DNA of 64,000 bases, taken from contig JACDBH010000004.1 of NCBI GenBank assembly GCA_013694995.1, positions 256,995 to 320,994 on the forward strand. The letters are read 5' to 3'. Made by a program: the position numbers and the translations under genes. The notes under the pieces were generated by a model. The model was given only the letters and a program-made list of their open reading frames with translations, made no database searches and was not told the DNA's origin. This DNA is from Candidatus Saccharimonadota bacterium. GTDB lineage: Bacteria; Patescibacteriota; Saccharimonadia; Saccharimonadales; JACDBH01. This document shows, in pieces, positions 15,600 through 35,844 of this stretch. The number at the start of each line of letters is the position of its first letter. The first letter of the stretch is position 1.

Positions 15600-15651
15600 T
15601 TATAACGCTTAAGGTCGTAAGAACAATCTTAATCTGTTAAAGTATTTTCTT

Positions 15652-16929
15652 ATGCACATATCGCGCACTAATAAGTCTAAAACTGAAACCAAGATGCTAA
15701 TCAGAGCTGAAGCTTCGGAATTACAAAAAGCCAAAGACCTAGCACTTAAAAAGCTTGCACTGCAGGTCAATGTTCCTGGTTTTCGTTCAGGTAAAGTACC
15801 CCTTGCCATAATTGAGAAAAACGTTAACCCTAACTTACTGCAAACCGAAGTTATTGAGGAAACAATAAATACTTTATATGCCTCTGCTGTCCGACAGGAA
15901 GATTTGCGACCAGTTGCAAATCCGGAAATAGCCATAAAAAAATTTGTACCTTTTACTGATTTGGAATTTGAAGTTTTAGTTCCTACTATTGGGGCTATAA
16001 AACTTGGGGACTATACAAAAATTAATCTGGCTAGAAAAACTGTTCAAGTAAGTGACATAGATATTAAAAATGTTATTAAGTCGTTACAACAGAGGGCTGC
16101 GGAGAAAAAGGATGTTCAACGTGCGGCCAAAGATGGTGACCAGGTTTGGATAGATTTTAAAGGTACGGATGATAAAGGTAATCCAGTCCAAGGCGCCGAT
16201 GGGAAGGATTACCCGCTAATTTTAGGTAGTAATACTTTTATACCAGGGTTTGAAGCTAATCTCATTGGTGCTAATACAGGCGAAAGTAGGACTTTTACTT
16301 TAACTTTTCCAAAAGACTACAATGTTAAAGCATTGAAAAGCAAAAAAGTCACCTTTAGAGCAACTGTAACCAAAGTCCAGGAAGTTATAGAACCTACAGT
16401 CGACGATGTATTTGCTTCAAAAATTGGACCATTTAAGACAGTTTCTGAACTCAAAAGCGATATAAAGAAACAACTAGTCTTTGAACGTAGTCGTGAAGCT
16501 GAAACAGCTTACGAAAATGAACTTTTACAAAAAATAGCCGACAAAACCATGATTGAAATTCCTGAAATGTTAATAAATGAGCAAATAGACCGTATCGAGC
16601 AGGAAGAGAAACAAAACCTAACCTACCGGGGACAGACGTGGGAGGAGCACCTGAAAGAAGAAGGCGTAACGGCAGAAGAACACCGGGAGCAGAAGCATCC
16701 GGTAGCCGACCAGAGGGTTAAAATAGGAGTACTTTTATCTGAAATTGCCGAAAAAGAACAAGTTGTTGTTACGCCAGAAGAAGTCGAAATCCGCTTACAA
16801 CTAATGAAGGGGCAATACCGTGACGCAGCCGCTCAATCCGAATTAGAAAAACCGGAGGCGCTACGTGATATTGCAACTAGAATCAAGACCGAAAAAACTC
16901 TGGAACGGATTAAATCTTATCAGAAATGA
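15652..16929 (+). CDS. tig: trigger factor
   Basis: N-terminal ribosome-binding signature GFRSGKVP, FKBP-type middle domain, helical C-terminal domain. TGA stop overlaps the next ATG. Confidence 0.87.
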   Translation: MHISRTNKSKTETKMLIRAEASELQKAKDLALKKLALQVNVPGFRSGKVPLAIIEKNVNPNLLQTEVIEETINTLYASAVRQEDLRPVANPEIAIKKFVPFTDLEFEVLVPTIGAIKLGDYTKINLARKTVQVSDIDIKNVIKSLQQRAAEKKDVQRAAKDGDQVWIDFKGTDDKGNPVQGADGKDYPLILGSNTFIPGFEANLIGANTGESRTFTLTFPKDYNVKALKSKKVTFRATVTKVQEVIEPTVDDVFASKIGPFKTVSELKSDIKKQLVFERSREAETAYENELLQKIADKTMIEIPEMLINEQIDRIEQEEKQNLTYRGQTWEEHLKEEGVTAEEHREQKHPVADQRVKIGVLLSEIAEKEQVVVTPEEVEIRLQLMKGQYRDAAAQSELEKPEALRDIATRIKTEKTLERIKSYQK

Positions 16930-29630: not shown

Positions 29631-30812
29631 ATGGCAAACTTCAACCGAGACAAACCACACGTAAACGTCGGTACCATGGGTCATGTCGACCACGGTAAAA
29701 CTACCCTAACAGCAGCTATTACGAGCGTGCTTGCTAAAAAATTGCCTAGTGACATCAATAAATCTGTTGCTTATGACCAAATCGACAACGCTCCGGAAGA
29801 AAAAGCCCGAGGTATAACTATCGCTACCTCCCACCAAGAATATGAGAGCGAAAAGCGCCACTATGCACACGTTGATATGCCGGGTCACGCTGACTACGTC
29901 AAGAACATGATTACCGGCGCTGCACAAATCGATGGAGCTATATTAGTTGTGTCTGCTGCTGATGGTCCTATGCCTCAGACTCGCGAACATGTTTTGCTTG
30001 CTAAGCAAGTGGGTGTTCCAAGCATCTTAGTTTTCATGAATAAAATGGACTTAGCGGACGCAGACCTTGTAGAGCTTGTAGAAATGGACATCCGCGAATT
30101 GCTTGCCAAATATGATTTTGATGAAAATGCACCGATTATCAAAGGCTCAGCAACCAAGGCGCTGGAAGGCGATGCTGCTAACGAAGACTCGATCATGGAG
30201 CTTATTAAAGCCATGGACGATTTTGTTCCTGAGCCAAAGCGCGAACTTGACAAGCCTTTCTTGATGCCTATTGAGGATGTCTTCTCAATTAAAGGTCGTG
30301 GCACAGTTGCTACTGGCCGTGTGGAACAAGGTGTAGTCAAGGTCAACGAAGAAGTCGAAATTGTTGGTATCCGTGCTACTACCAAATCTGTTGTAACTGG
30401 TGTTGAAATGTTCAAGAAAAATCTTGATCAGGGTCAGGCTGGTGACAACGTCGGTATACTGCTTAGAGGTATAGAACGTGATGACATAGAGCGCGGCCAG
30501 GTTTTGGCTAAACCCGGTACAATTACTCCACACACAGAATTTGATGCTGAAGTTTATATCCTAACTAAAGAAGAAGGTGGACGACACACACCATTCTTCA
30601 AAGGATATAAACCACAATTTTACTTCCGCACAACGGACGTAACAGGTGAAGTTGAACTCCCAGCAGATAAAGAAATGGTCATGCCTGGTGATACAATCAC
30701 CTTTAAGGTCACATTGCTAGCTCCTATTGCTATGGAGCAGGGACTTCGCTTTGCAATCCGCGAAGGTGGCCGTACGGTTGGTGCTGGAGTGGTAACGAAA
30801 ATCAATAAATAG
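29631..30812 (+). CDS. tuf: elongation factor Tu
   Basis: [21 protein letters not shown] motifs. 393 aa. AAGGAGA Shine-Dalgarno upstream. Confidence 0.97.
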
Positions 30813-30836
30813 AAAATTTAGTGTACTATTAAGCAT

Positions 30837-30870
30837 AGAGCCTCGCAAAATACCGGGGCTCTATTTTTAT
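30837..30870 (+). terminator. intrinsic terminator after tuf
   Basis: AGAGCCTCG-caaaatac-CGGGGCTCT (9 bp including one G.U pair) followed by ATTTTTATT. Confidence 0.75.
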
Positions 30871-30898
30871 TGATTAACCTTTCTTAAAACTATAAAAA

Positions 30899-31060
30899 CT
30901 AAGCAGCCTTAAAACGGTCTTTAAGATCTAGAAACTTAGCATACCCTTCCAGTGCTAGTGCTCCTGCAACCGCCGCGACAGCCACTGGTATATTGATTAA
31001 TTCACCCATGAGCTTACCAGACTCTTCGTTATGAAGCCTTGGTCCTATTAGTTCAGACAT
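30899..31060 (-). CDS. candidate small hydrophobic protein (53 aa), below the ORF-track length cutoff
   Basis: My translation: MSELIGPRLHNEESGKLMGELINIPVAVAAVAGALALEGYAKFLDLKDRFKAA*. The Ala/Gly-rich hydrophobic core resembles ORF 32000..32206. Weak Shine-Dalgarno. Confidence 0.35.
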   Translation of the reverse strand: MSELIGPRLHNEESGKLMGELINIPVAVAAVAGALALEGYAKFLDLKDRFKAA

Positions 31061-31250
31061 TTTTATCTTTCTCGCTAGTATAGCGTTTATGCTTTTAACT
31101 TACTCTTTAATGTTGTTGTTGTAAATATCTTTATTTATAACTAGATTTGTTGTAAAATAACAGAGTAAATTAACGGTGATGATTAAAAGTCATTGCACAA
31201 GCTCTATATAGCAGTGCAAGGATGTTACATCACAAATAAGGACAAATATT

Positions 31251-31589
31251 ATGGCAGAAGCGAAAAAAACTGAAGCGCCTGCACCAAAGCAACGTATTCG
31301 TATCCGCTTGAAGGCGTATGATCATAAAGTAATTGACCAGTCCGCAAAACAGATTGTTGATACGGCATTGCGAACGGGAGCAACCATTGCCGGCCCGATT
31401 CCGCTGCCGACACGCAAAAGTACATTTACAGTAGTCAAAAGCCCCCACGTCTTCAAGAAAGGCCGAGAACAGTTCGAAATGCGTGTCCATAAACGTCTGA
31501 TTGATGTATTTGAGCCTACCCCTAAGACAATTGATTCTTTAATGAATCTTTCTCTTCCTGCTGGCTGCGACGCTGAAATTAAGATGTAA
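31251..31589 (+). CDS. rpsJ: 30S ribosomal protein S10 (uS10)
   Basis: [26 protein letters not shown]...GPIPLPT...HKRLIDV. 112 aa. Confidence 0.95.
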
Positions 31590-31712
31590 CTTTAGGCAAA
31601 CCGTCTTAAGAGTTCTTAACTTTTAAGGCAAAGTTAAGTGATTATCTGACCAAAACTAATATTGTACTAAATATTACTGTAAATACTTATGTTTTAGAGT
31701 AAGTTGTGCCTT

Positions 31713-32003
31713 ATGACTATGCTTCAGTCTTTGGATTCAATTGAGCAACATTATGATAATTTGATTGAGATTATTTCAAAAAAGTGCAGAACTTGCCCTT
31801 ACGCTGTTGCGCTAGCGGAAATACTTATAGTCAATGTTGAACAAGGTGAGATGTCTATCGACCAGGCAGACAGGGAATTTGCTCTGCAACTTGGTAGTAA
31901 ATGTATGGAAGATGGGCTGGTTGAATTATATGATTCGTATTATTGTCCCGCAAAAGATGCGTCTGTACAGAGCCCTGAGTATCTAGCTGTAACTGGTACT
32001 TAA
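31713..32003 (+). CDS. hypothetical small CxxC protein inserted between rpsJ and rplC
   Basis: The ORF is open from TTG 31704, with ATG codons at 31713 and 31719. CRTC motif plus two distal Cys residues. Residues NLIEIISKKCRTCPYAVALAEILIVNVEQ align with ELVDIFAPENCKNCEGLEAQAEVVGNEKVQ of ORF 26819. Confidence 0.5.
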   Translation: MTMLQSLDSIEQHYDNLIEIISKKCRTCPYAVALAEILIVNVEQGEMSIDQADREFALQLGSKCMEDGLVELYDSYYCPAKDASVQSPEYLAVTGT

Positions 32004-32206
32004 GTCTTCTTTTTCTTGGCCCATCTTCTAAGTAGTTCAAAACCGCCAGCTTGTGCGGCATTAAATGCAGCGTAGGATGAAATCAGTACGTTCGGACCAG
32101 GTATTGCTAGAGCAATTGCTCCTGCTCCTAAGGCTATGACTGTATTGAAATCGCGCCCGAAACGGGCTGCTCGCTCTCCAAACTTAGACTCGATATTGCT
32201 AGCCAT
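32000..32206 (-). CDS. hypothetical small Gly/Ala-rich hydrophobic protein (68 aa) with a KKKK tail
   Basis: MASNIESKFGERAARFGRDFNTVIALGAGAIALAIPGPNVLISSYAAFNAAQAGGFELLRRWAKKKKT. Its stop overlaps the stop of the convergent ORF 31713..32003 (shared TTAA). Confidence 0.45.
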   Translation of the reverse strand: MASNIESKFGERAARFGRDFNTVIALGAGAIALAIPGPNVLISSYAAFNAAQAGGFELLRRWAKKKKT

Positions 32207-32271
32207 TGCATATGAATATATAAAAAAGCATAACAACAAGCTGTAAAGTATATTACGACTGTGCTTTAATA

Positions 32272-32529
32272 ATGATTATGGTAAAAAATAAAGAACCGGA
32301 CAGCGTTTATTTCTTAAAATTGGTGCTTTATCTTATTATTGGTGCTCAGTGGCTTCGTATAACTAAGAGTGGTTTGCAAATCCCAATCCCTATAGGTCTA
32401 ATCATCGGCATACTATTTGCTAGAACCGATCATTTTCAAATTGACCGCAAAGTTGAGTATGCAATTCTACTTGTTGCTATGTTTGTTGGTTTTTGGCTTC
32501 CACTAGGTCTCGAAATCGTAATTCGTTAA
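32272..32529 (+). CDS. hypothetical small membrane protein (85 aa, ~3 hydrophobic helices)
   Basis: ORF with hydrophobic segments LKLVLYLIIGAQWL, IPIGLIIGILFA and AILLVAMFVGFWLPLGL. Confidence 0.5.
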   Translation: MIMVKNKEPDSVYFLKLVLYLIIGAQWLRITKSGLQIPIPIGLIIGILFARTDHFQIDRKVEYAILLVAMFVGFWLPLGLEIVIR

Positions 32530-32549
32530 TTTGTAGAATTTACATCGTA

Positions 32550-32579
32550 TTGACTAGTGTTAATGTTTTGTGCTAATCT
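32550..32579 (+). promoter_or_regulatory. candidate promoter for rplC and the downstream operon (TTGACT-18-TGcTAATCT)
   Basis: TTGACT at 32550-32555. Extended -10 TGCTAATCT at 32571-32579. Confidence 0.45.
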
Positions 32580-32613
32580 GTTATGGTATATCAACAATTT
32601 GGACACTTTAGAA

Positions 32614-32667
32614 CTTGGTGAATAAGCAGGTCTACAGAGGTAGAAACCACTTGCCACCAAGCTTTTT
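32614..32667 (+). promoter_or_regulatory. structured leader or attenuator-like hairpin upstream of rplC
   Basis: CTTGGTG (32614-20) pairs with CACCAAG (32655-61). Inner helices are gca/tgc, ggt/acc and ctac/gtag, with an AGAG tetraloop. Followed by CTTTTTAA ~33 nt before the rplC ATG. Confidence 0.4.
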
Positions 32668-32699
32668 AACGCATTGTGCCAAGTAATATTAAGGAAACT

Positions 32700-33314
32700 A
32701 TGAAAGCACTCATTACCAGAAAGGTTGGCATGACAAGTCTCGTCGCTGAAGACGGTATTGTTACCGCTGTTACCTTGCTTTCAGCTAGTCCTAACGTTAT
32801 TACCCAAGTAAAGACAACTGACACAGATGGCTATCAAGCTGTTCAACTTGGTTTCGAGACTGCTAAACATCCTGCTAAGCCACAGGTTGGCCACACAGCT
32901 AAGGCTAAAGTGAATCCAGCTAAAATCGTCCGCGAAATTCGCGTAGATGAAATTAGCGAAGATATGAGCGTCGGCACTGAACTTAAAGCCGACGTTTTTA
33001 GTGTCGGTGATGCAGTTAGCGTTACTGGTATTAGCAAAGGTAAAGGTTTTGCAGGCACTATTAAGCGTCACAACTTCAAGCTTGGCCGTAAAACCCATGG
33101 TGGCCGCTCTTACCGTCGTCCCGGATCAATTGGTTCCATGTACCCGCAGCGTATCTTTAAGGGTAAACGTATGGCCGGACAGATGGGCGTTGATCAAGTC
33201 ACTGTAAAGAATCTTAAAGTAGCTCTAGTCGATGTAGATAACAACCTTATAGCGGTAACCGGTGCAGTCCCCGGCCCACGTAAAAGCATCGTCGTACTAA
33301 AGGGAGCCAAATAA
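32700..33314 (+). CDS. rplC: 50S ribosomal protein L3 (uL3)
   Basis: MKALITRKVGMTSL... with an AAGGAA Shine-Dalgarno. The tracked GTG start at 32676 is less likely. Confidence 0.95.
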   Translation: MKALITRKVGMTSLVAEDGIVTAVTLLSASPNVITQVKTTDTDGYQAVQLGFETAKHPAKPQVGHTAKAKVNPAKIVREIRVDEISEDMSVGTELKADVFSVGDAVSVTGISKGKGFAGTIKRHNFKLGRKTHGGRSYRRPGSIGSMYPQRIFKGKRMAGQMGVDQVTVKNLKVALVDVDNNLIAVTGAVPGPRKSIVVLKGAK

Positions 33315-33315
33315 T

Positions 33316-33963
33316 ATGAGCGTTCCTACTTATACCAAGACCGGCACTAAGGCTACAACTGCAGCTAAATTGCCAAAAGAAATATTTGCTGTTGAGAAAA
33401 TTAGCCATGAACTTCTGAAACAGGCCTACAACACCTATCTTGCCAATAAACGGACTAACAATGCCCGTACTCTAAAGCGCGGCGAGGTCCGTGGTGGCGG
33501 TAAGAAACCTTGGAAACAAAAAGGTACAGGACGTGCTCGCTTTGGCTCAATTCGCGTACCAATTTGGCGTGGTGGCGGTATAACGTTTGGCCCGACCGGC
33601 CTCGAAAATTACAGACATGCTTTACCAACCAGCACTAAGCGGAGCGCACTCAGGCAAGCCCTAACAGTTGCAACCCAATCTAACAAGATTACAATAATCG
33701 AATCATTTGATAACAAGGCCGGCAAAGTTGCTGAAACGGTCGCGCTGCTTAATAAAATTGAGGCTGTCCGCAACATCTTACTAGTAGTTAATGACAAGGA
33801 CGACATGGTTACCCGTGCTACCCGTAATATATCAAATCTCACAGTAGTTCAAGCCAAATACCTCAATGTATTCGATATACTGAATGCCGACACGATCGTA
33901 CTTACTACTCAGTCGGTTGAAATCATTAGCGACTGGCTCGGCCCTAAAAAGGCGGTTAAATAA
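33316..33963 (+). CDS. rplD: 50S ribosomal protein L4 (uL4)
   Basis: RGGGKKPWKQKGTGRARFGSIRVPIWRGGG motif. Operon position. Confidence 0.95.
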   Translation: MSVPTYTKTGTKATTAAKLPKEIFAVEKISHELLKQAYNTYLANKRTNNARTLKRGEVRGGGKKPWKQKGTGRARFGSIRVPIWRGGGITFGPTGLENYRHALPTSTKRSALRQALTVATQSNKITIIESFDNKAGKVAETVALLNKIEAVRNILLVVNDKDDMVTRATRNISNLTVVQAKYLNVFDILNADTIVLTTQSVEIISDWLGPKKAVK

Positions 33964-34325
33964 TGAAAGACTTTGTGCTCAAACCTCGGGTTAGCGAAAA
34001 AGCCTATGCCATGAGCCAAGCTGAAAATATCAAGACTTATGTATTTGTTGTTTCTACTTCGGCCAATAAGCATAGCGTTGCTCGTGCAATTACTGCACAG
34101 TACGGTGTGGTTGTTACCAATGTAAGGACTACAACTACCAAGGGTAAGACCAAGCAATCATATCGTAAAGGTGGTCGTCCGGTAGCGGGTGTACGTTCTG
34201 ATATTAAGAAGGCGTACGTTACGCTACGGGCCGGTGAAAGCTTGCCGCTGTTTGTCGAGGAAGCCGCTGAAGAAGAAAAACAGGCGAAGGAAGCTAAGAA
34301 AGCTTTGAAAAAGGAACCTAAATAA
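33963..34325 (+). CDS. rplW: 50S ribosomal protein L23 (uL23) with Lys/Glu-rich C-terminal extension
   Basis: LKPRVSEKAY... and operon position. Tail EEAAEEEKQAKEAKKALKKEPK. Confidence 0.92.
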   Translation: MKDFVLKPRVSEKAYAMSQAENIKTYVFVVSTSANKHSVARAITAQYGVVVTNVRTTTTKGKTKQSYRKGGRPVAGVRSDIKKAYVTLRAGESLPLFVEEAAEEEKQAKEAKKALKKEPK

Positions 34326-35179
34326 TGGCTATTAGAGCTTATAAACCAAACACACCAGGTCAGCGTGGTATGACCACTCAAGACTTTGATGGTATAACTG
34401 CTAAAAAGCCGCTCAAGAGCCTAACGGTTATTCGAAAGCAAAATTCCGGCCGTAACAACCAGGGCCGTATAACTACCCGTCACCGTGGTGGTGGAGCCCG
34501 CCGTTTTATTCGGCTTCTTAATTTCAATTTGGCACCAGGATTGGAAGCAACAATCGAGCACATCGAATACGACCCAGGACGATCAGCCCGCATTGCACGT
34601 ATTAAAGAATCGAATGGAACTTATCACTACATTTTAGCTGGCACGGATATGGTCCCAGGCCGGATTATAAGAAGTGGTGAAGACGCACCTGTTGAAAATG
34701 GCAACCGTCTACCGCTGGCAAACATTCCTGTCGGAAGCACTATTTACGGTGTTGAGTTACAGCCCGGTCGTGGTGCTCAGGTTGTTCGCTCAGCTGGTAC
34801 GTCCGCTCAGCTTATGGCCAAAGAGGATGAATACGCTCAGATTCGCATGCCATCAGGCGAAGTTCGTAAAGTACTTGTTACTTGTATGGCAACACTTGGT
34901 AGTGTTGGTAACGAGCAGCACCAAAACGTCAAAATTGGTAAGGCTGGTCGCAACCGCAATAAGGGTTGGCGTCCAAGTGTCCGCGGAGTTGTCATGAACG
35001 CCGTAGACCACCCACACGGTGGTGGTGACGGGGGACGGCATGGTGTTGGTGGTGGTAAAAACCACGGTGCGGCGCCTCGTACGCCATGGGGTGTTAAGAC
35101 GCTTGGATACAAGACCCGCCGCCGCAAGTCTACAAGTAAATTTATAGTTAAATCTCGTCATCAGGCGAAGAGGAAATAG
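34325..35179 (+). CDS. rplB: 50S ribosomal protein L2 (uL2)
   Basis: [27 protein letters not shown] motifs. Confidence 0.96.
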
Positions 35180-35181
35180 AC

Positions 35182-35451
35182 ATGAGTAGATCACTTAAAA
35201 AAGGTCCCTTTATCGATCCAAAACTTGCAAAGAAAGTAGCAGCACTTGGCAATGACGATCGTACAATTATCAAAACCTGGGCCCGAGCTAGTGCTATTCC
35301 ACCTGAGTTTGTCGGCCGCACCTTTGCTGTTCATAATGGCCGCGTTCATGTGCCTGTTTATGTCACCGAAAACATGGTCGGTCATAAACTGGGTGAGTTT
35401 TCTCCAACCCGTAAGTTCCGCTCCCATGGCGGTAAGTTGGCGAAAGGTTAA
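35182..35451 (+). CDS. rpsS: 30S ribosomal protein S19 (uS19)
   Basis: [15 protein letters not shown]...[21 protein letters not shown]. Confidence 0.96.
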
Positions 35452-35454
35452 ACT

Positions 35455-35844
35455 ATGAGTGTACAAGCAATAGCTAAAGCTGTCCGTATGAGCCCACGCA
35501 AAGTTAGTGTCGTAGCCAGTCTAGTGCGCGGCCGTACCGTTGCTGATGCGCTAATTATTCTCGAACATGCACCTCGTGCTGCTGCCTTGCCCGTCACCAA
35601 AGTTATCAAAAGTGCCCGTGCCAACGCAGAGAACAATCATAATTACCGCCCCGATAGTTTACTAATTACAGAAATCAGTGTAACACCCGGTATCCGCTAC
35701 AAGCGTTTCCGCCCGGTCTCGCGCGGCATGGCCCATCCATACCAAAAACGCACAAGCCATATTAAAGTCGTAGTTGACGGCGAAAAGCGCGCACCAAAAA
35801 AGGTAAAAGCCGAGAGTGTTAAGCCGAAAGCCGAGGAGAAATAA
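35455..35844 (+). CDS. rplV: 50S ribosomal protein L22 (uL22) with basic C-terminal tail
   Basis: RMSPRKVSVVASLVRGRTVADALIILE... and operon position. Confidence 0.94.
   Translation: MSVQAIAKAVRMSPRKVSVVASLVRGRTVADALIILEHAPRAAALPVTKVIKSARANAENNHNYRPDSLLITEISVTPGIRYKRFRPVSRGMAHPYQKRTSHIKVVVDGEKRAPKKVKAESVKPKAEEK

What the first reader, a model, noticed from the sequence alone, without database searches (positions are those of the whole stretch)
31590..32699. rpsJ is separated from rplC by a ~1.1-kb insertion carrying three small unknown ORFs, one antisense
In bacteria generally, rpsJ-rplC-rplD-rplW... form one contiguous S10 operon with a short rpsJ-rplC spacer. Here rpsJ (31251-31589) stands alone. 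It is followed by a 96-aa CxxC ORF (+), a convergent 68-aa Gly/Ala-rich ORF (-) whose stop overlaps it in a shared TTAA, and an 85-aa membrane ORF (+). Only then come a new promoter-like site and rplC at 32700. An opposite-strand gene inside this locus implies the ancestral operon is transcriptionally broken. By eye the inserted stretch looks more AT-rich than the flanking ribosomal-protein genes; I did not compute this.
Basis: partly seen in the sequence, partly recalled or inferred. Interest (0 to 1): 0.55.

Follow-up and report, generated by a model that had tools for sequence, protein, structure and literature searches.

The report
Split S10 operon with new leaders
In this Saccharibacteria genome, and in every relative examined, the ribosomal genes rpsJ and rplC are separate units, each with its own promoter and a conserved, previously uncatalogued folded RNA leader, and the space between them holds a changing set of real small genes.

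Summary
rpsJ (31251-31589) and rplC (32700-) are 1,110 bp apart. The gap holds three ORFs, one of them antisense, and is AT-rich.

It is not a one-off insertion. In 70 related Saccharibacteria genomes the same gap measures 134-4,788 bp (median about 1,240) and its cargo differs from genome to genome.

All three ORFs are real genes:
- orfC is a 3-helix membrane protein with more than 700 homologues, found only in this gap wherever its context was examined.
- orfB is a strongly conserved 68-aa protein, antisense in the gap of four genomes.
- orfA is a fast-evolving CxxC...C protein that keeps the same position in three genomes.

The main new result is two conserved control modules.
- rplC has a near-consensus promoter (TTGACN-17/18-TANNNT in 65 of 66 loci that carry the leader). 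A covarying hairpin plus U-run follows it, so it looks like an attenuator.
- rpsJ has its own, different covarying stem-loop next to its ribosome-binding site.

Neither RNA matches any Rfam 15 family. I infer that both are ribosomal-protein autoregulatory leaders; the proteins that bind them are not known. The operon split resembles the archaeal arrangement. Overall this is a new variant of a known kind, of moderate interest.

The parts
29631..30812 (+). tuf (EF-Tu), the gene upstream of the rpsJ unit
   Evidence: ORF. Named elongation factor Tu (MBA2279355.1).
30835..30874 (+). Intrinsic-terminator-like hairpin plus T-run after tuf. It separates tuf from rpsJ in this genome.
   Evidence: 11-bp stem with 6 GC pairs, followed by TTTTATTGAT.
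31153..31158 (+). Candidate -10 hexamer (TAAAAT) of the rpsJ promoter. This is inferred.
   Evidence: TGTTGTA(A/C)AAT recurs about 15-25 nt upstream of the rpsJ leader in relatives. The TM7x rpsJ upstream region works as a promoter (PMC10633639).
31172..31237 (+). rpsJ leader RNA motif. P1 is 31176-31181 paired with 31228-31233. The internal loop is AUUAAAA opposite GUUA. P2 is 31189-31197 paired with 31215-31224. The motif ends 6 nt before the SD (AAGGA, about 31239-31243).
   Evidence: - Alignment A6 (53 sequences): 12 of 14 pairs show compensatory changes.
- 93% of cells are paired against 30-54% when the partners are slid; 0 of 500 shuffles reach the observed value.
- CM R2 hits once in each of 66 sources, always upstream of rpsJ, and once in the 64-kb window.
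- MFE -18.7 kcal/mol, z -4.3.
- No Rfam match.
31251..31589 (+). rpsJ (ribosomal protein S10)
   Evidence: Pfam PF00338, E 9e-35. MBA2279357.1.
31713..32003 (+). orfA, a 96-aa Cys-rich protein (CxxC...C...C) restricted to a small clade. Locus tag H0V99_02885.
   Evidence: - Only itself was found among 5.8 billion clusters.
- Three distant relatives were found among 1.84 billion representatives, E 3e-7 to 4e-4.
- C25, C28 and C64 are invariant.
- The relatives sit in the same rpsJ-rplC gap in L001 and L087.
32000..32206 (-). orfB, a 68-aa conserved helical small protein, antisense to the ribosomal genes. It is convergent with orfA and their stops overlap in TTAA. Locus tag H0V99_02890.
   Evidence: - 74 homologues.
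- 14 invariant columns in alignment A3.
- Antisense in the gap in L001, L081 and L085 as well.
- No Pfam or NCBIfam match.
- AF2 model has three helices, pLDDT 71.
32262..32270 (+). Extended -10 promoter of orfC (TGcTTTAAT), 7 nt before the ATG at 32278. This implies a leaderless orfC mRNA (inferred).
   Evidence: A -10 hexamer lies 6-8 nt before the ATG in 28 of 39 orfC loci, 22 of them with TG. Only 2 loci have an SD.
32272..32529 (+). orfC, a small membrane protein with three hydrophobic helices, specific to Saccharibacteria. It is 85 aa as an ORF and probably 83 aa from 32278. Locus tag H0V99_02895.
   Evidence: - 702 homologues.
- 16 invariant columns in alignment A4.
- Always in the rpsJ-rplC gap and co-oriented with those genes, in 43 of 80 rpsJ-selected loci and in the 5 distinct contexts among loci chosen through other proteins.
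- AF2 pLDDT 78.
- No Pfam or PDB match.
32532..32539 (+). Conserved TGTAGAAT box upstream of the rplC -35 element. It may be a second tandem promoter or an upstream element.
   Evidence: A TAGAAT-like box is present in 41 of 66 loci. It can be read in the short-gap loci. The scan listed it as TAGAAT.
32550..32579 (+). rplC promoter. The -35 is TTGACT (32550-32555), followed by an 18-nt spacer with TG at 32571-32572, then the -10 TAATCT (32574-32579). The predicted transcription start is about 32586.
   Evidence: TTGACN-N17/18-TANNNT is present in 65 of 66 leader-bearing loci. TG is present in 56 of 66.
32608..32680 (+). rplC leader RNA motif. The hairpin spans 32614-32661: P1 is CUUGGUG paired with CACCAAG, and the conserved core is GGUCUAC-AGAG-GUAGAAACC. 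A U-run follows at 32663-32667. The arrangement looks like a transcription attenuator.
   Evidence: - nhmmer finds one copy per locus, 23-213 nt (one weak match at 333 nt) upstream of rplC.
- 13 of 16 pairs are compensatory.
- 91% of cells are paired against 27-45% when slid; 0 of 500 shuffles.
- CM R1 hits 69 relatives and hits the window once.
- A U-run is present in 62 of 66 loci.
- In a motif-first metagenome search, 18 of 18 hits have rplC downstream.
- MFE -17.3 kcal/mol, z -2.6.
- No Rfam match.
32691..32695 (+). Shine-Dalgarno sequence (AAGGA) of rplC
   Evidence: Read directly from the sequence.
32700..35844 (+). [quoted passage not shown]
   Evidence: ORFs. Pfam Ribosomal_L3. The same order is seen in L081, L085, L087 and L090.

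Best explanation
The 1.1-kb stretch is this genome's version of a variable boundary between transcription units. That boundary separates rpsJ from rplC in every Saccharibacteria (Saccharimonadia) relative examined.

Shown:
- The rplC-rplD-rplW-rplB... block is preceded by its own near-consensus sigma-70-type promoter (TTGACT-18-TGcTAATCT).
- About 30 nt downstream of that promoter lies a conserved, covarying hairpin followed by a U-run.
- rpsJ has a separate conserved stem-internal loop-stem RNA that ends 6 nt before its Shine-Dalgarno sequence.
- All three ORFs between the two units are conserved genes.

Inferred:
- Because the two units are regulated independently, DNA between the rpsJ stop and the rplC promoter can be gained and lost without harm. 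This would explain why the gap holds different cargo in different genomes.
- In this genome the cargo is orfC, orfB and orfA. orfC is a Saccharibacteria-specific 3-helix membrane protein found only in this gap in every context examined. It has its own extended -10 promoter placed for leaderless translation. orfB is a strongly conserved helical 68-aa protein transcribed antisense. orfA is a fast-evolving CxxC...C protein.
- The rplC leader probably acts as an autoregulatory transcription attenuator. When a ribosomal protein encoded in the operon is in excess, it would bind the conserved hairpin core and favour termination at the U-run. L4 is the candidate by analogy with E. coli, and L3 is also possible.
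- The rpsJ leader probably acts as a translational operator, because it sits next to the Shine-Dalgarno sequence. It may be bound by S10 itself.

My probabilities: about 0.9 for the boundary and real-gene part, about 0.45 for protein-mediated attenuation at rplC, and about 0.25 for any one specific ligand.
For: The gap is universal and variable.
- 70 relatives have gaps of 134-4,788 bp, median 1,240.
- The cargo families differ between genomes: HAD, NUDIX, Peptidase_M29 and glycosyl-hydrolase-like by Pfam, and others by eye. Some cargo genes are on the minus strand.
- The shortest gaps consist of the promoter plus leader, or in L038 the promoter only.

The rplC promoter is conserved.
- TTGACN-N17/18-TANNNT occurs in 65 of 66 loci, and TG in 56 of 66.

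The rplC leader is a conserved structure tied to rplC.
- It occurs once per locus, on the same strand as rplC, 23-213 nt upstream (one weak match at 333 nt).
- 13 of 16 pairs show compensatory changes. 91% of cells are paired against 27-45% when slid, and 0 of 500 shuffles reach that value.
- CM R1 hits 69 relatives and hits the window once.
- A U-run is present in 62 of 66 loci.
- In a search that started from the motif alone, 18 of 18 metagenome hits have rplC 16-269 nt downstream. The 60 chance occurrences of the 16-mer have neither rplC nor rpsJ.

The rpsJ leader is a conserved structure tied to rpsJ.
- 12 of 14 pairs are compensatory. 93% of cells are paired against 30-54% when slid, with a covariation score of 0.705 against 0.206 in shuffles.
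- CM R2 hits once per locus, upstream of rpsJ, in 66 sources.
- The TM7x rpsJ upstream region is a working promoter (PMC10633639).

rpsJ often ends a transcription unit.
- 34 of 81 loci have an intrinsic terminator within 120 nt after rpsJ.

The ORFs are real genes.

Precedent.
- The E. coli S10 leader is an L4-responsive attenuator and translational operator (PMC3616713).
Against: - No expression data are available, so promoters, transcription starts, termination and leaderless translation are all inferred from sequence.
- No protein partner has been identified. CM R1 and CM R2 found nothing in the E. coli rRNA operon, so rRNA mimicry is not shown. No Saccharibacteria rRNA could be examined.
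- The window has no recognisable terminator after rpsJ. rpsJ and orfA may therefore be co-transcribed, and read-through from orfC into the rplC leader is possible.
- The 153-nt rplC upstream region as a whole is no more stable than its shuffles (z -0.4). Only the hairpin itself stands out (z -2.6).
- The functions of orfA, orfB and orfC are unknown.
- Only the 80 closest of 511 rpsJ relatives were examined, so nothing is known about other CPR lineages.
Confidence: 0.7

Rival explanations
1. The hairpin plus U-run before rplC is a constitutive insulator or terminator, or an RNA processing or stability element. It would stop or process read-through from whatever cargo lies upstream. No ribosomal protein senses it.
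For: - In the window orfC ends 20 nt before the rplC -35 element, with no terminator in between, so read-through has to be handled somehow.
- A U-run is present in 62 of 66 loci.
- No similarity to rRNA was found.
Against: - The hairpin lies downstream of the conserved promoter in every locus, so it also acts on rplC's own transcripts.
- An ordinary terminator has no reason to keep an almost invariant internal sequence (ACAGRGGUAGAAACC) while its stems covary.
- The element is also present where the gap is only about 180 bp and holds no cargo.
Confidence: 0.2
2. One reading: a recent insertion, by horizontal transfer or a mobile element, of about 1.1 kb of AT-rich foreign DNA broke a previously contiguous rpsJ-rplC operon in this genome.
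For: - Gap GC is 0.376 against 0.442 for the window, the lowest 1.1% of windows.
- orfA and orfB have a patchy distribution.
- An orfB homologue lies in an unrelated context in L083 and L084.
Against: - All 70 relatives already have a gap of at least 134 bp with the same promoter and leader.
- orfC is inherited in this position across the group.
- There are no integrase genes, transposase genes, tRNA genes or meaningful flanking repeats.
- The low GC is concentrated in the spacers and in the hydrophobic orfC.
Confidence: 0.04
3. One or both leaders are riboswitch-like sensors of a small molecule or ion (for example an alarmone or Mg2+) and not protein-binding operators.
For: - Both are conserved structured 5' leaders with covariation.
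- One has a terminator-type expression platform.
- No protein partner has been demonstrated.
Against: - Both are simple single hairpins of about 50-90 nt with internal loops and no multi-stem junction.
- Each is tied to one ribosomal-protein gene and is found nowhere else in about 0.8 Mb of Saccharibacteria DNA.
- Neither matches any known riboswitch class in Rfam.
- Leaders of ribosomal-protein operons are, in the known cases, protein-responsive (PMC3616713, PMC7247131).
Confidence: 0.06
4. The ORFs are spurious or decayed and the gap is simply non-coding spacer, or the locus is an assembly artefact.
For: - No Pfam or NCBIfam family matches any of the three.
- orfA has almost no homologues.
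Against: - orfC has 702 homologues and 16 invariant columns.
- orfB has 74 homologues and 14 invariant columns.
- orfA keeps its length, position and three Cys residues at about 30% identity.
- The same proteins were recovered on two contigs, from both the NCBI and the Logan sources.
Confidence: 0.02

Closest known systems
E. coli S10 operon leader (L4-responsive attenuator and translational operator)
   Same: - Both are 5' leaders of the operon that encodes L3, L4, L23, L2 and so on.
- In both, a promoter is followed by a structured hairpin ending in a U-run a few tens of nt before the first gene, which is the architecture of a transcription attenuator.
- The precedent is autoregulation by an operon-encoded protein (PMC3616713).
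   Different: - The E. coli leader precedes rpsJ and has five hairpins. Here the element precedes rplC and is a single irregular hairpin with a different conserved core.
- No similarity was detected by Rfam 15 models.
- Dependence on L4 or NusA has not been tested.
- rpsJ has its own, unrelated leader.
L4 r-leader candidate of Archaeoglobi (Eckert and Weinberg 2020, PMC7247131)
   Same: It is a candidate structured leader directly upstream of rplC-rplD-rplW-rplB in a lineage where S10 is encoded elsewhere.
   Different: It is archaeal, and no Rfam model matches the region here. Any relationship would be one of analogy only.
Archaeal arrangement in which uS10 is encoded apart from the uL3-uL4-uL23(-uL2) cluster
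   Same: - S10 is detached from the L3-led cluster (PMC10833476).
- Here rpsJ follows tuf, and in 9 of 72 relatives it lies within 100 bp of tuf.
- From my own knowledge, cyanobacterial and plastid str operons likewise carry rps10 after tufA.
   Different: - Here rpsJ still sits next to the rplC cluster, 0.1-4.8 kb away.
- In most relatives rpsJ has its own promoter and leader and is not simply fused to tuf.
Bacillus subtilis L20 leader (infC operon), a ribosomal-protein leader acting by transcription attenuation
   Same: It is a precedent for a ribosomal protein controlling its operon through a terminator hairpin in the leader (described in PMC3616713).
   Different: It involves a different operon, protein and structure. 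It shows rRNA mimicry, which is not shown here.

Membership tests
[quoted passage not shown] | rpsJ is immediately followed by rplC with a short spacer | tested here: not met
   The gap is 1,110 bp here and 134-4,788 bp in 70 relatives.
[quoted passage not shown] | [quoted passage not shown] | tested here: met
   The junctions range from a 1-bp overlap to 3 bp. The same order is seen in L081, L085, L087 and L090.
[quoted passage not shown] | A single promoter and leader upstream of rpsJ serving the whole operon | tested here: not met
   A separate conserved promoter and leader lie directly upstream of rplC. Antisense genes lie inside the gap. 34 of 81 loci have a terminator after rpsJ. All of this rests on sequence, with no transcript data.
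Autoregulatory ribosomal-protein leader RNAs (r-leaders) | Located in the 5' untranslated region of a ribosomal-protein gene or operon, on the same strand | tested here: met
   R1 is always upstream of rplC. R2 is always upstream of rpsJ.
Autoregulatory ribosomal-protein leader RNAs (r-leaders) | Conserved secondary structure supported by covariation | tested here: met
   R1: 13 of 16 pairs compensatory, 0 of 500 shuffles. R2: 12 of 14 pairs compensatory, 0 of 500 shuffles for the fraction of cells paired and for the covariation score.
Autoregulatory ribosomal-protein leader RNAs (r-leaders) | Specific binding by a ribosomal protein encoded downstream, with repression | not testable with these tools
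   This needs binding assays, in vitro termination assays or reporter assays.
Autoregulatory ribosomal-protein leader RNAs (r-leaders) | Resemblance to the protein's rRNA binding site (common, but not universal) | tested here: inconclusive
   The CMs found nothing in the E. coli rrn operon. A short GGGAAACCG string in 23S near nt 629 resembles the GUAGAAACC core, but this is weak. No Saccharibacteria rRNA was available.
E. coli-type L4-interacting S10 leader, or any r-leader family in Rfam 15 | Match to the family covariance model | tested here: not met
   No relevant hit even at E up to 10 in 30700-32900. Only tRNAs were found at gathering threshold across the window.
Intrinsic terminator or transcription attenuator | A stable stem followed within 0-2 nt by a U-run, located between a promoter and the regulated gene | tested here: met
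   The window hairpin is -17.3 kcal/mol and is followed by C then UUUUU. A U-run is present in 62 of 66 loci, and the promoter lies 16-35 nt upstream (median 27; one outlier at 7). Actual termination has not been tested.
Mobile element or genomic-island insertion | Integrase or transposase gene, flanking direct or inverted repeats, or a tRNA target | tested here: not met
   No such genes are among the ORFs. Only short, chance-level repeats were found. There is no tRNA nearby.

The most novel reading that the evidence does not exclude
In Saccharibacteria the ancestral S10 operon has been divided into two autonomously regulated units, each under a newly evolved RNA control element. The rplC operon would have a hairpin attenuator that senses L4 or L3. 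That would be an independent re-invention of E. coli-style attenuation in the candidate phyla radiation (CPR). The rpsJ operator would be bound by S10 (NusE) itself. As far as I know, that would be the first autoregulatory RNA for S10. The small membrane protein orfC keeps its place in this gap across the group and appears to be translated from a leaderless mRNA. It could then be a lineage-specific partner of the translation or secretion machinery and not just passenger cargo.
Probability: 0.2. Interest if true: 0.7.

Novelty: new variant of a known kind. Interest (0 to 1): 0.52.

Why it matters
Almost nothing is known about gene regulation in the candidate phyla radiation (CPR). This locus offers several concrete starting points:
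- a sharply defined strong-promoter consensus;
- two well-supported cis-regulatory RNA candidates for the core ribosomal-protein genes, neither matching any Rfam 15 family;
- a case study of how a deeply conserved operon can be split and then become a tolerated site for gene gain and loss;
- two uncharacterised small-protein families (orfC with more than 700 members, orfB with at least 74), plus sequence evidence for leaderless translation.

Saccharibacteria can now be manipulated genetically (PMC10633639), so the proposed regulation can be tested directly. The rplC promoter and leader could also serve as expression tools.

Tried and rejected
Family searches
- Pfam and NCBIfam searches on orfA, orfB and orfC gave only sub-threshold noise.

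Structure searches
- The orfC model against PDB by Foldseek gave no match better than E 0.56.
- I did not run a fold search on the orfB model, because a helical hairpin would give unspecific matches.

Rfam
- The region scanned at E up to 10, and the whole window at gathering threshold, gave nothing relevant.
- The ORF-poor 1.2 kb after orfC in L001 also gave nothing.

rRNA mimicry
- CM R1 and CM R2 against the E. coli rrn operon gave only noise.
- A string search found only a weak GGGAAACCG resemblance.

Mobile-element hypothesis
- The repeat search found only chance-level matches.

Generic promoter and terminator scan
- It missed the real rplC promoter, because TAATCT matches only 3 of 6 positions of TATAAT. 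It also missed the long irregular hairpin.

Possible link between orfB and the 53-aa minus-strand ORF between tuf and rpsJ
- The orfB HMM does not detect that ORF. The only similarity is a 17-nt match at 82% identity, so I rejected a relationship.

Literature
- Searches for the operon split or for leaders in Saccharibacteria or CPR found nothing specific.
Full report
**What is in the sequence**

rpsJ lies at 31251-31589 (Pfam Ribosomal_S10, E 9e-35). rplC starts at 32700.

Three ORFs lie between them:
- orfA, 31713-32003 (+), 96 aa, with CRTC at residues 25-28.
- orfB, 32000-32206 (-), 68 aa. Its stop overlaps the orfA stop in TTAA at 32000-32003.
- orfC, 32272-32529 (+), 85 aa, with three hydrophobic helices.

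Downstream, rplC, rplD, rplW, rplB, rpsS and rplV are packed with junctions ranging from a 1-bp overlap to 3 bp. The 1,110-bp gap is therefore exceptional within this gene cluster.

The gap has GC 0.376 against 0.442 for the whole window, which puts it in the lowest 1.1% of windows of the same size. The low values are concentrated in 358 bp of spacer (GC 0.26-0.35) and in the hydrophobic orfC. orfB has GC 0.469.

The public record annotates all three ORFs as hypothetical proteins (H0V99_02885, _02890, _02895). Most proteins of the locus were also recovered on a second contig, from the Logan source. An assembly artefact is therefore unlikely.

**Synteny**

A scan for rpsJ relatives in species-representative genomes returned 80 loci, nearly all labelled Saccharibacteria or Saccharimonadia.

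- In the 70 loci that contain both genes, the rpsJ-rplC distance ranges from 134 to 4,788 bp, with a median of about 1,240 bp. Only five are shorter than 300 bp.
- The cargo differs from genome to genome. It includes HAD, NUDIX, Peptidase_M29 and glycosyl-hydrolase-like genes (by Pfam) and others such as a CTP-synthase-like gene (by eye). Several are on the minus strand.
- The tuf-rpsJ distance is also variable, from 5 to 2,518 bp.
- There are no integrase genes, tRNA genes or meaningful flanking repeats in the window.

The separation of rpsJ from rplC is thus a trait of the lineage and not an event in this genome.

**The three ORFs are genes**

*orfC*
- It has 702 homologues of 81-131 aa, mostly 85-100 aa, none with a Pfam domain, and 16 invariant alignment columns.
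- It lies in the rpsJ-rplC gap, on the same strand as those genes, in 43 of the 80 rpsJ-selected loci. It does so also in the five distinct contexts among loci selected through other proteins: L081, L085, L087, L089 and L090.
- The AlphaFold model (pLDDT 78) shows three helices and short strands. It has no PDB match.

*orfB*
- It has 74 homologues and 14 invariant columns. The conserved motif is RFGRDINALGALAIAG..IPGPNVVLA.WAGLNAAQAGGFELLR.
- It lies antisense in the gap in the window, L001, L081 and L085, at different positions relative to orfC. It lies in an unrelated context in L083 and L084.

*orfA*
- It has only three distant relatives among 1.84 billion representative proteins (E 3e-7 to 4e-4). 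They share three invariant Cys residues.
- The L001 homologue and the relative in L087 occupy the same gap.

None of the three matches a family of known function.

**rplC has its own control module**

Short minus-strand 'ORF families' just upstream of rplC in many relatives turned out to reflect conserved non-coding DNA.

A hairpin motif is found once per locus, always on the rplC strand, 23-213 nt upstream of the start (one weak match at 333 nt). In the window the hairpin spans 32614-32661. P1 is CUUGGUG paired with CACCAAG. The core is GGUCUAC-AGAG-GUAGAAACC. A UUUUU run follows at 32663-32667.

Evidence for the structure:
- On a MAFFT alignment of 48 sequences, RNAalifold predicts 16 pairs, 13 of them with compensatory changes.
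- 91% of cells are paired, against 27-45% when partners are slid by 1-3 columns. None of 500 shuffles reaches the observed values.
- A covariance model hits 69 relatives and hits the 64-kb window exactly once. It also hits four loci chosen independently of rpsJ.

A search that started from the motif alone gave the same association. The exact 16-mer AACAGAGGTAGAAACC was scanned in metagenome contigs. Of 80 loci read, 20 match the model. In all 18 with enough downstream sequence, rplC starts 16-269 nt downstream on the same strand. The 60 chance occurrences of the 16-mer contain neither rplC nor rpsJ.

Between 16 and 35 nt upstream of the hairpin (median 27; one outlier at 7) lies a near-consensus promoter. 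TTGACN-N17/18-TANNNT is present in 65 of 66 loci, usually with an extended -10 TG. In the window the elements are:
- TTGACT at 32550-32555
- TG at 32571-32572
- TAATCT at 32574-32579

A TGTAGAAT box further upstream is also common, in 41 of 66 loci.

A U-run follows the hairpin in 62 of 66 loci. The window hairpin folds at -17.3 kcal/mol, z -2.6.

There is tentative evidence for an outer helix that joins the 9 nt 5' of P1 to the segment between the U-run and the SD. The duplex energy within a locus averages -4.97 kcal/mol, against -4.12 for cross-locus pairings. In 5,000 permutations none reached the observed value.

No Rfam 15 family matches this region.

**rpsJ has a different control module**

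A second motif lies upstream of rpsJ, at 31172-31237 in the window. It has a 6-bp outer stem that covaries freely, a conserved asymmetric internal loop (AYUAAAA opposite GUUA, with a GAGAACUY variant in some relatives), and a variable inner hairpin. It ends 6 nt before the SD.

- Twelve of 14 pairs show compensatory changes.
- 93% of cells are paired, against 30-54% when slid. The covariation score is 0.705, against 0.206 in shuffles.
- Its covariance model hits once per locus upstream of rpsJ in 66 sources and hits the window once.
- It folds at -18.7 kcal/mol, z -4.3.

Where tuf and rpsJ are almost fused, the motif was not found in any locus examined.

In N. lyticus TM7x the region upstream of rpsJ was chosen as a predicted strong promoter and successfully drove a resistance gene (PMC10633639).

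An intrinsic terminator follows tuf in the window. One follows rpsJ within 120 nt in 34 of 81 loci, but not in the window.

**How it most likely works**

Shown:
- There are two separate, conserved promoter-leader modules.
- The interval between them is variable.
- The genes inside it are real.

Inferred:
- Because rplC carries its own promoter and leader, the interval between the rpsJ stop and that promoter is a boundary between transcription units. Genes can be inserted or lost there without disturbing ribosomal-protein expression.
- The order promoter, hairpin, U-run, then SD is the architecture of a transcription attenuator. The almost invariant internal sequence set within covarying stems suggests a binding site. 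By analogy with the L4-responsive S10 leader of E. coli, which acts by termination and by translational repression (PMC3616713), I propose feedback by a protein encoded in the operon, L4 or L3.
- The rpsJ element sits next to the SD, which fits a translational operator, possibly for S10 itself.
- orfC in most loci, and orfB in the four Saccharibacteria loci, have a -10 hexamer 6-8 nt before the ATG and no SD. This suggests leaderless mRNAs.

No transcript or binding data exist. The models find nothing in the E. coli rRNA operon.

**Comparison with what is known**

- Detachment of S10 from the L3-L4-L23 cluster is the rule in archaea (PMC10833476). From my own knowledge, it also occurs in cyanobacterial and plastid str operons. 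The split as such is therefore a known kind of arrangement, though I found no report of it for Saccharibacteria.
- A candidate L4 leader upstream of rplC has been described in Archaeoglobi (PMC7247131). E. coli has its leader upstream of rpsJ. Neither is detectably related to the motifs here.
- I therefore file the locus as a new variant of a known kind: a split S10 operon with two new r-leader candidates and two uncharacterised small-protein families.

**Verdict**

Interest is moderate, mainly for the two strongly supported RNA motifs and the promoter consensus in a genetically tractable CPR lineage.

Noticed in passing
window 30899-31060 (-): A 53-aa minus-strand ORF lies between tuf and rpsJ. 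It is annotated as hypothetical protein H0V99_02875. It forms a singleton cluster, has no hit in 80 relatives, and is not detected by the orfB HMM. It may be spurious or an orphan gene.
   Followed up: partly
window 32262-32280; window 32207-32230 (-); loci L001, L081, L085 and about 28 orfC loci: orfC and orfB have a -10-like hexamer, often with an extended TG, 6-8 nt before the ATG, and almost never an SD. This suggests leaderless mRNAs for small membrane proteins in Saccharibacteria. It also implies that orfC starts at 32278 (83 aa).
   Followed up: partly
window 15627-15645 (+): A near-copy of the rplC -10 region (TCTTAATCTGTTAAAGTAT, 2 mismatches) lies just upstream of a trigger-factor-like ORF (15652-16929). 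TAATCTGTTA may be a shared feature of strong promoters in this organism.
   Followed up: no
window 32532-32539 and the same position in 41 of 66 relatives: A conserved TGTAGAAT box lies about 10 nt upstream of the rplC -35 element. It could be a tandem promoter, an UP-like element or a factor binding site.
   Followed up: partly
window 32601-32606 with 32676-32680; relatives, e.g. L025, L041, L023: A possible outer helix encloses the rplC leader hairpin and its U-run, for example CCUGUA paired with ACAGG close to the SD. Pairing within a locus is stronger than pairing across loci; none of 5,000 permutations reached the observed value. The position of the helix varies between loci.
   Followed up: partly
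L001 9160-10336: In the closest relative (rpsJ 95% identical), orfC is followed by about 1.2 kb with few ORFs, no rplC, no rplC leader and no Rfam match. rplC lies further away or elsewhere. The order of orfB and orfA also differs from the window.
   Followed up: partly
L083 and L084, 4001-4231: The orfB homologue that scores highest against the family profile sits among FUR, rhodanese, glutaredoxin, Crp-type regulator and histidine-kinase genes, not among ribosomal genes. These genes are atypical for reduced CPR genomes. The family may extend beyond Saccharibacteria or may move horizontally.
   Followed up: no
L089 6540-6851; L081 314-427; L090 1668-1874: Some relatives have extra small genes of unknown function at other junctions of the ribosomal cluster: a 103-aa gene between rplB and rpsS, a 37-aa gene between rplV and rpsC, and a 68-aa gene between tuf and rpsJ.
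   Followed up: no
L037 4514-4579, L056 4706-4771, L068 4708-4771: In these loci the rpsJ leader motif lies 230-420 nt upstream of rpsJ instead of about 10-35 nt. Something may have been inserted between the leader and the gene.
   Followed up: no
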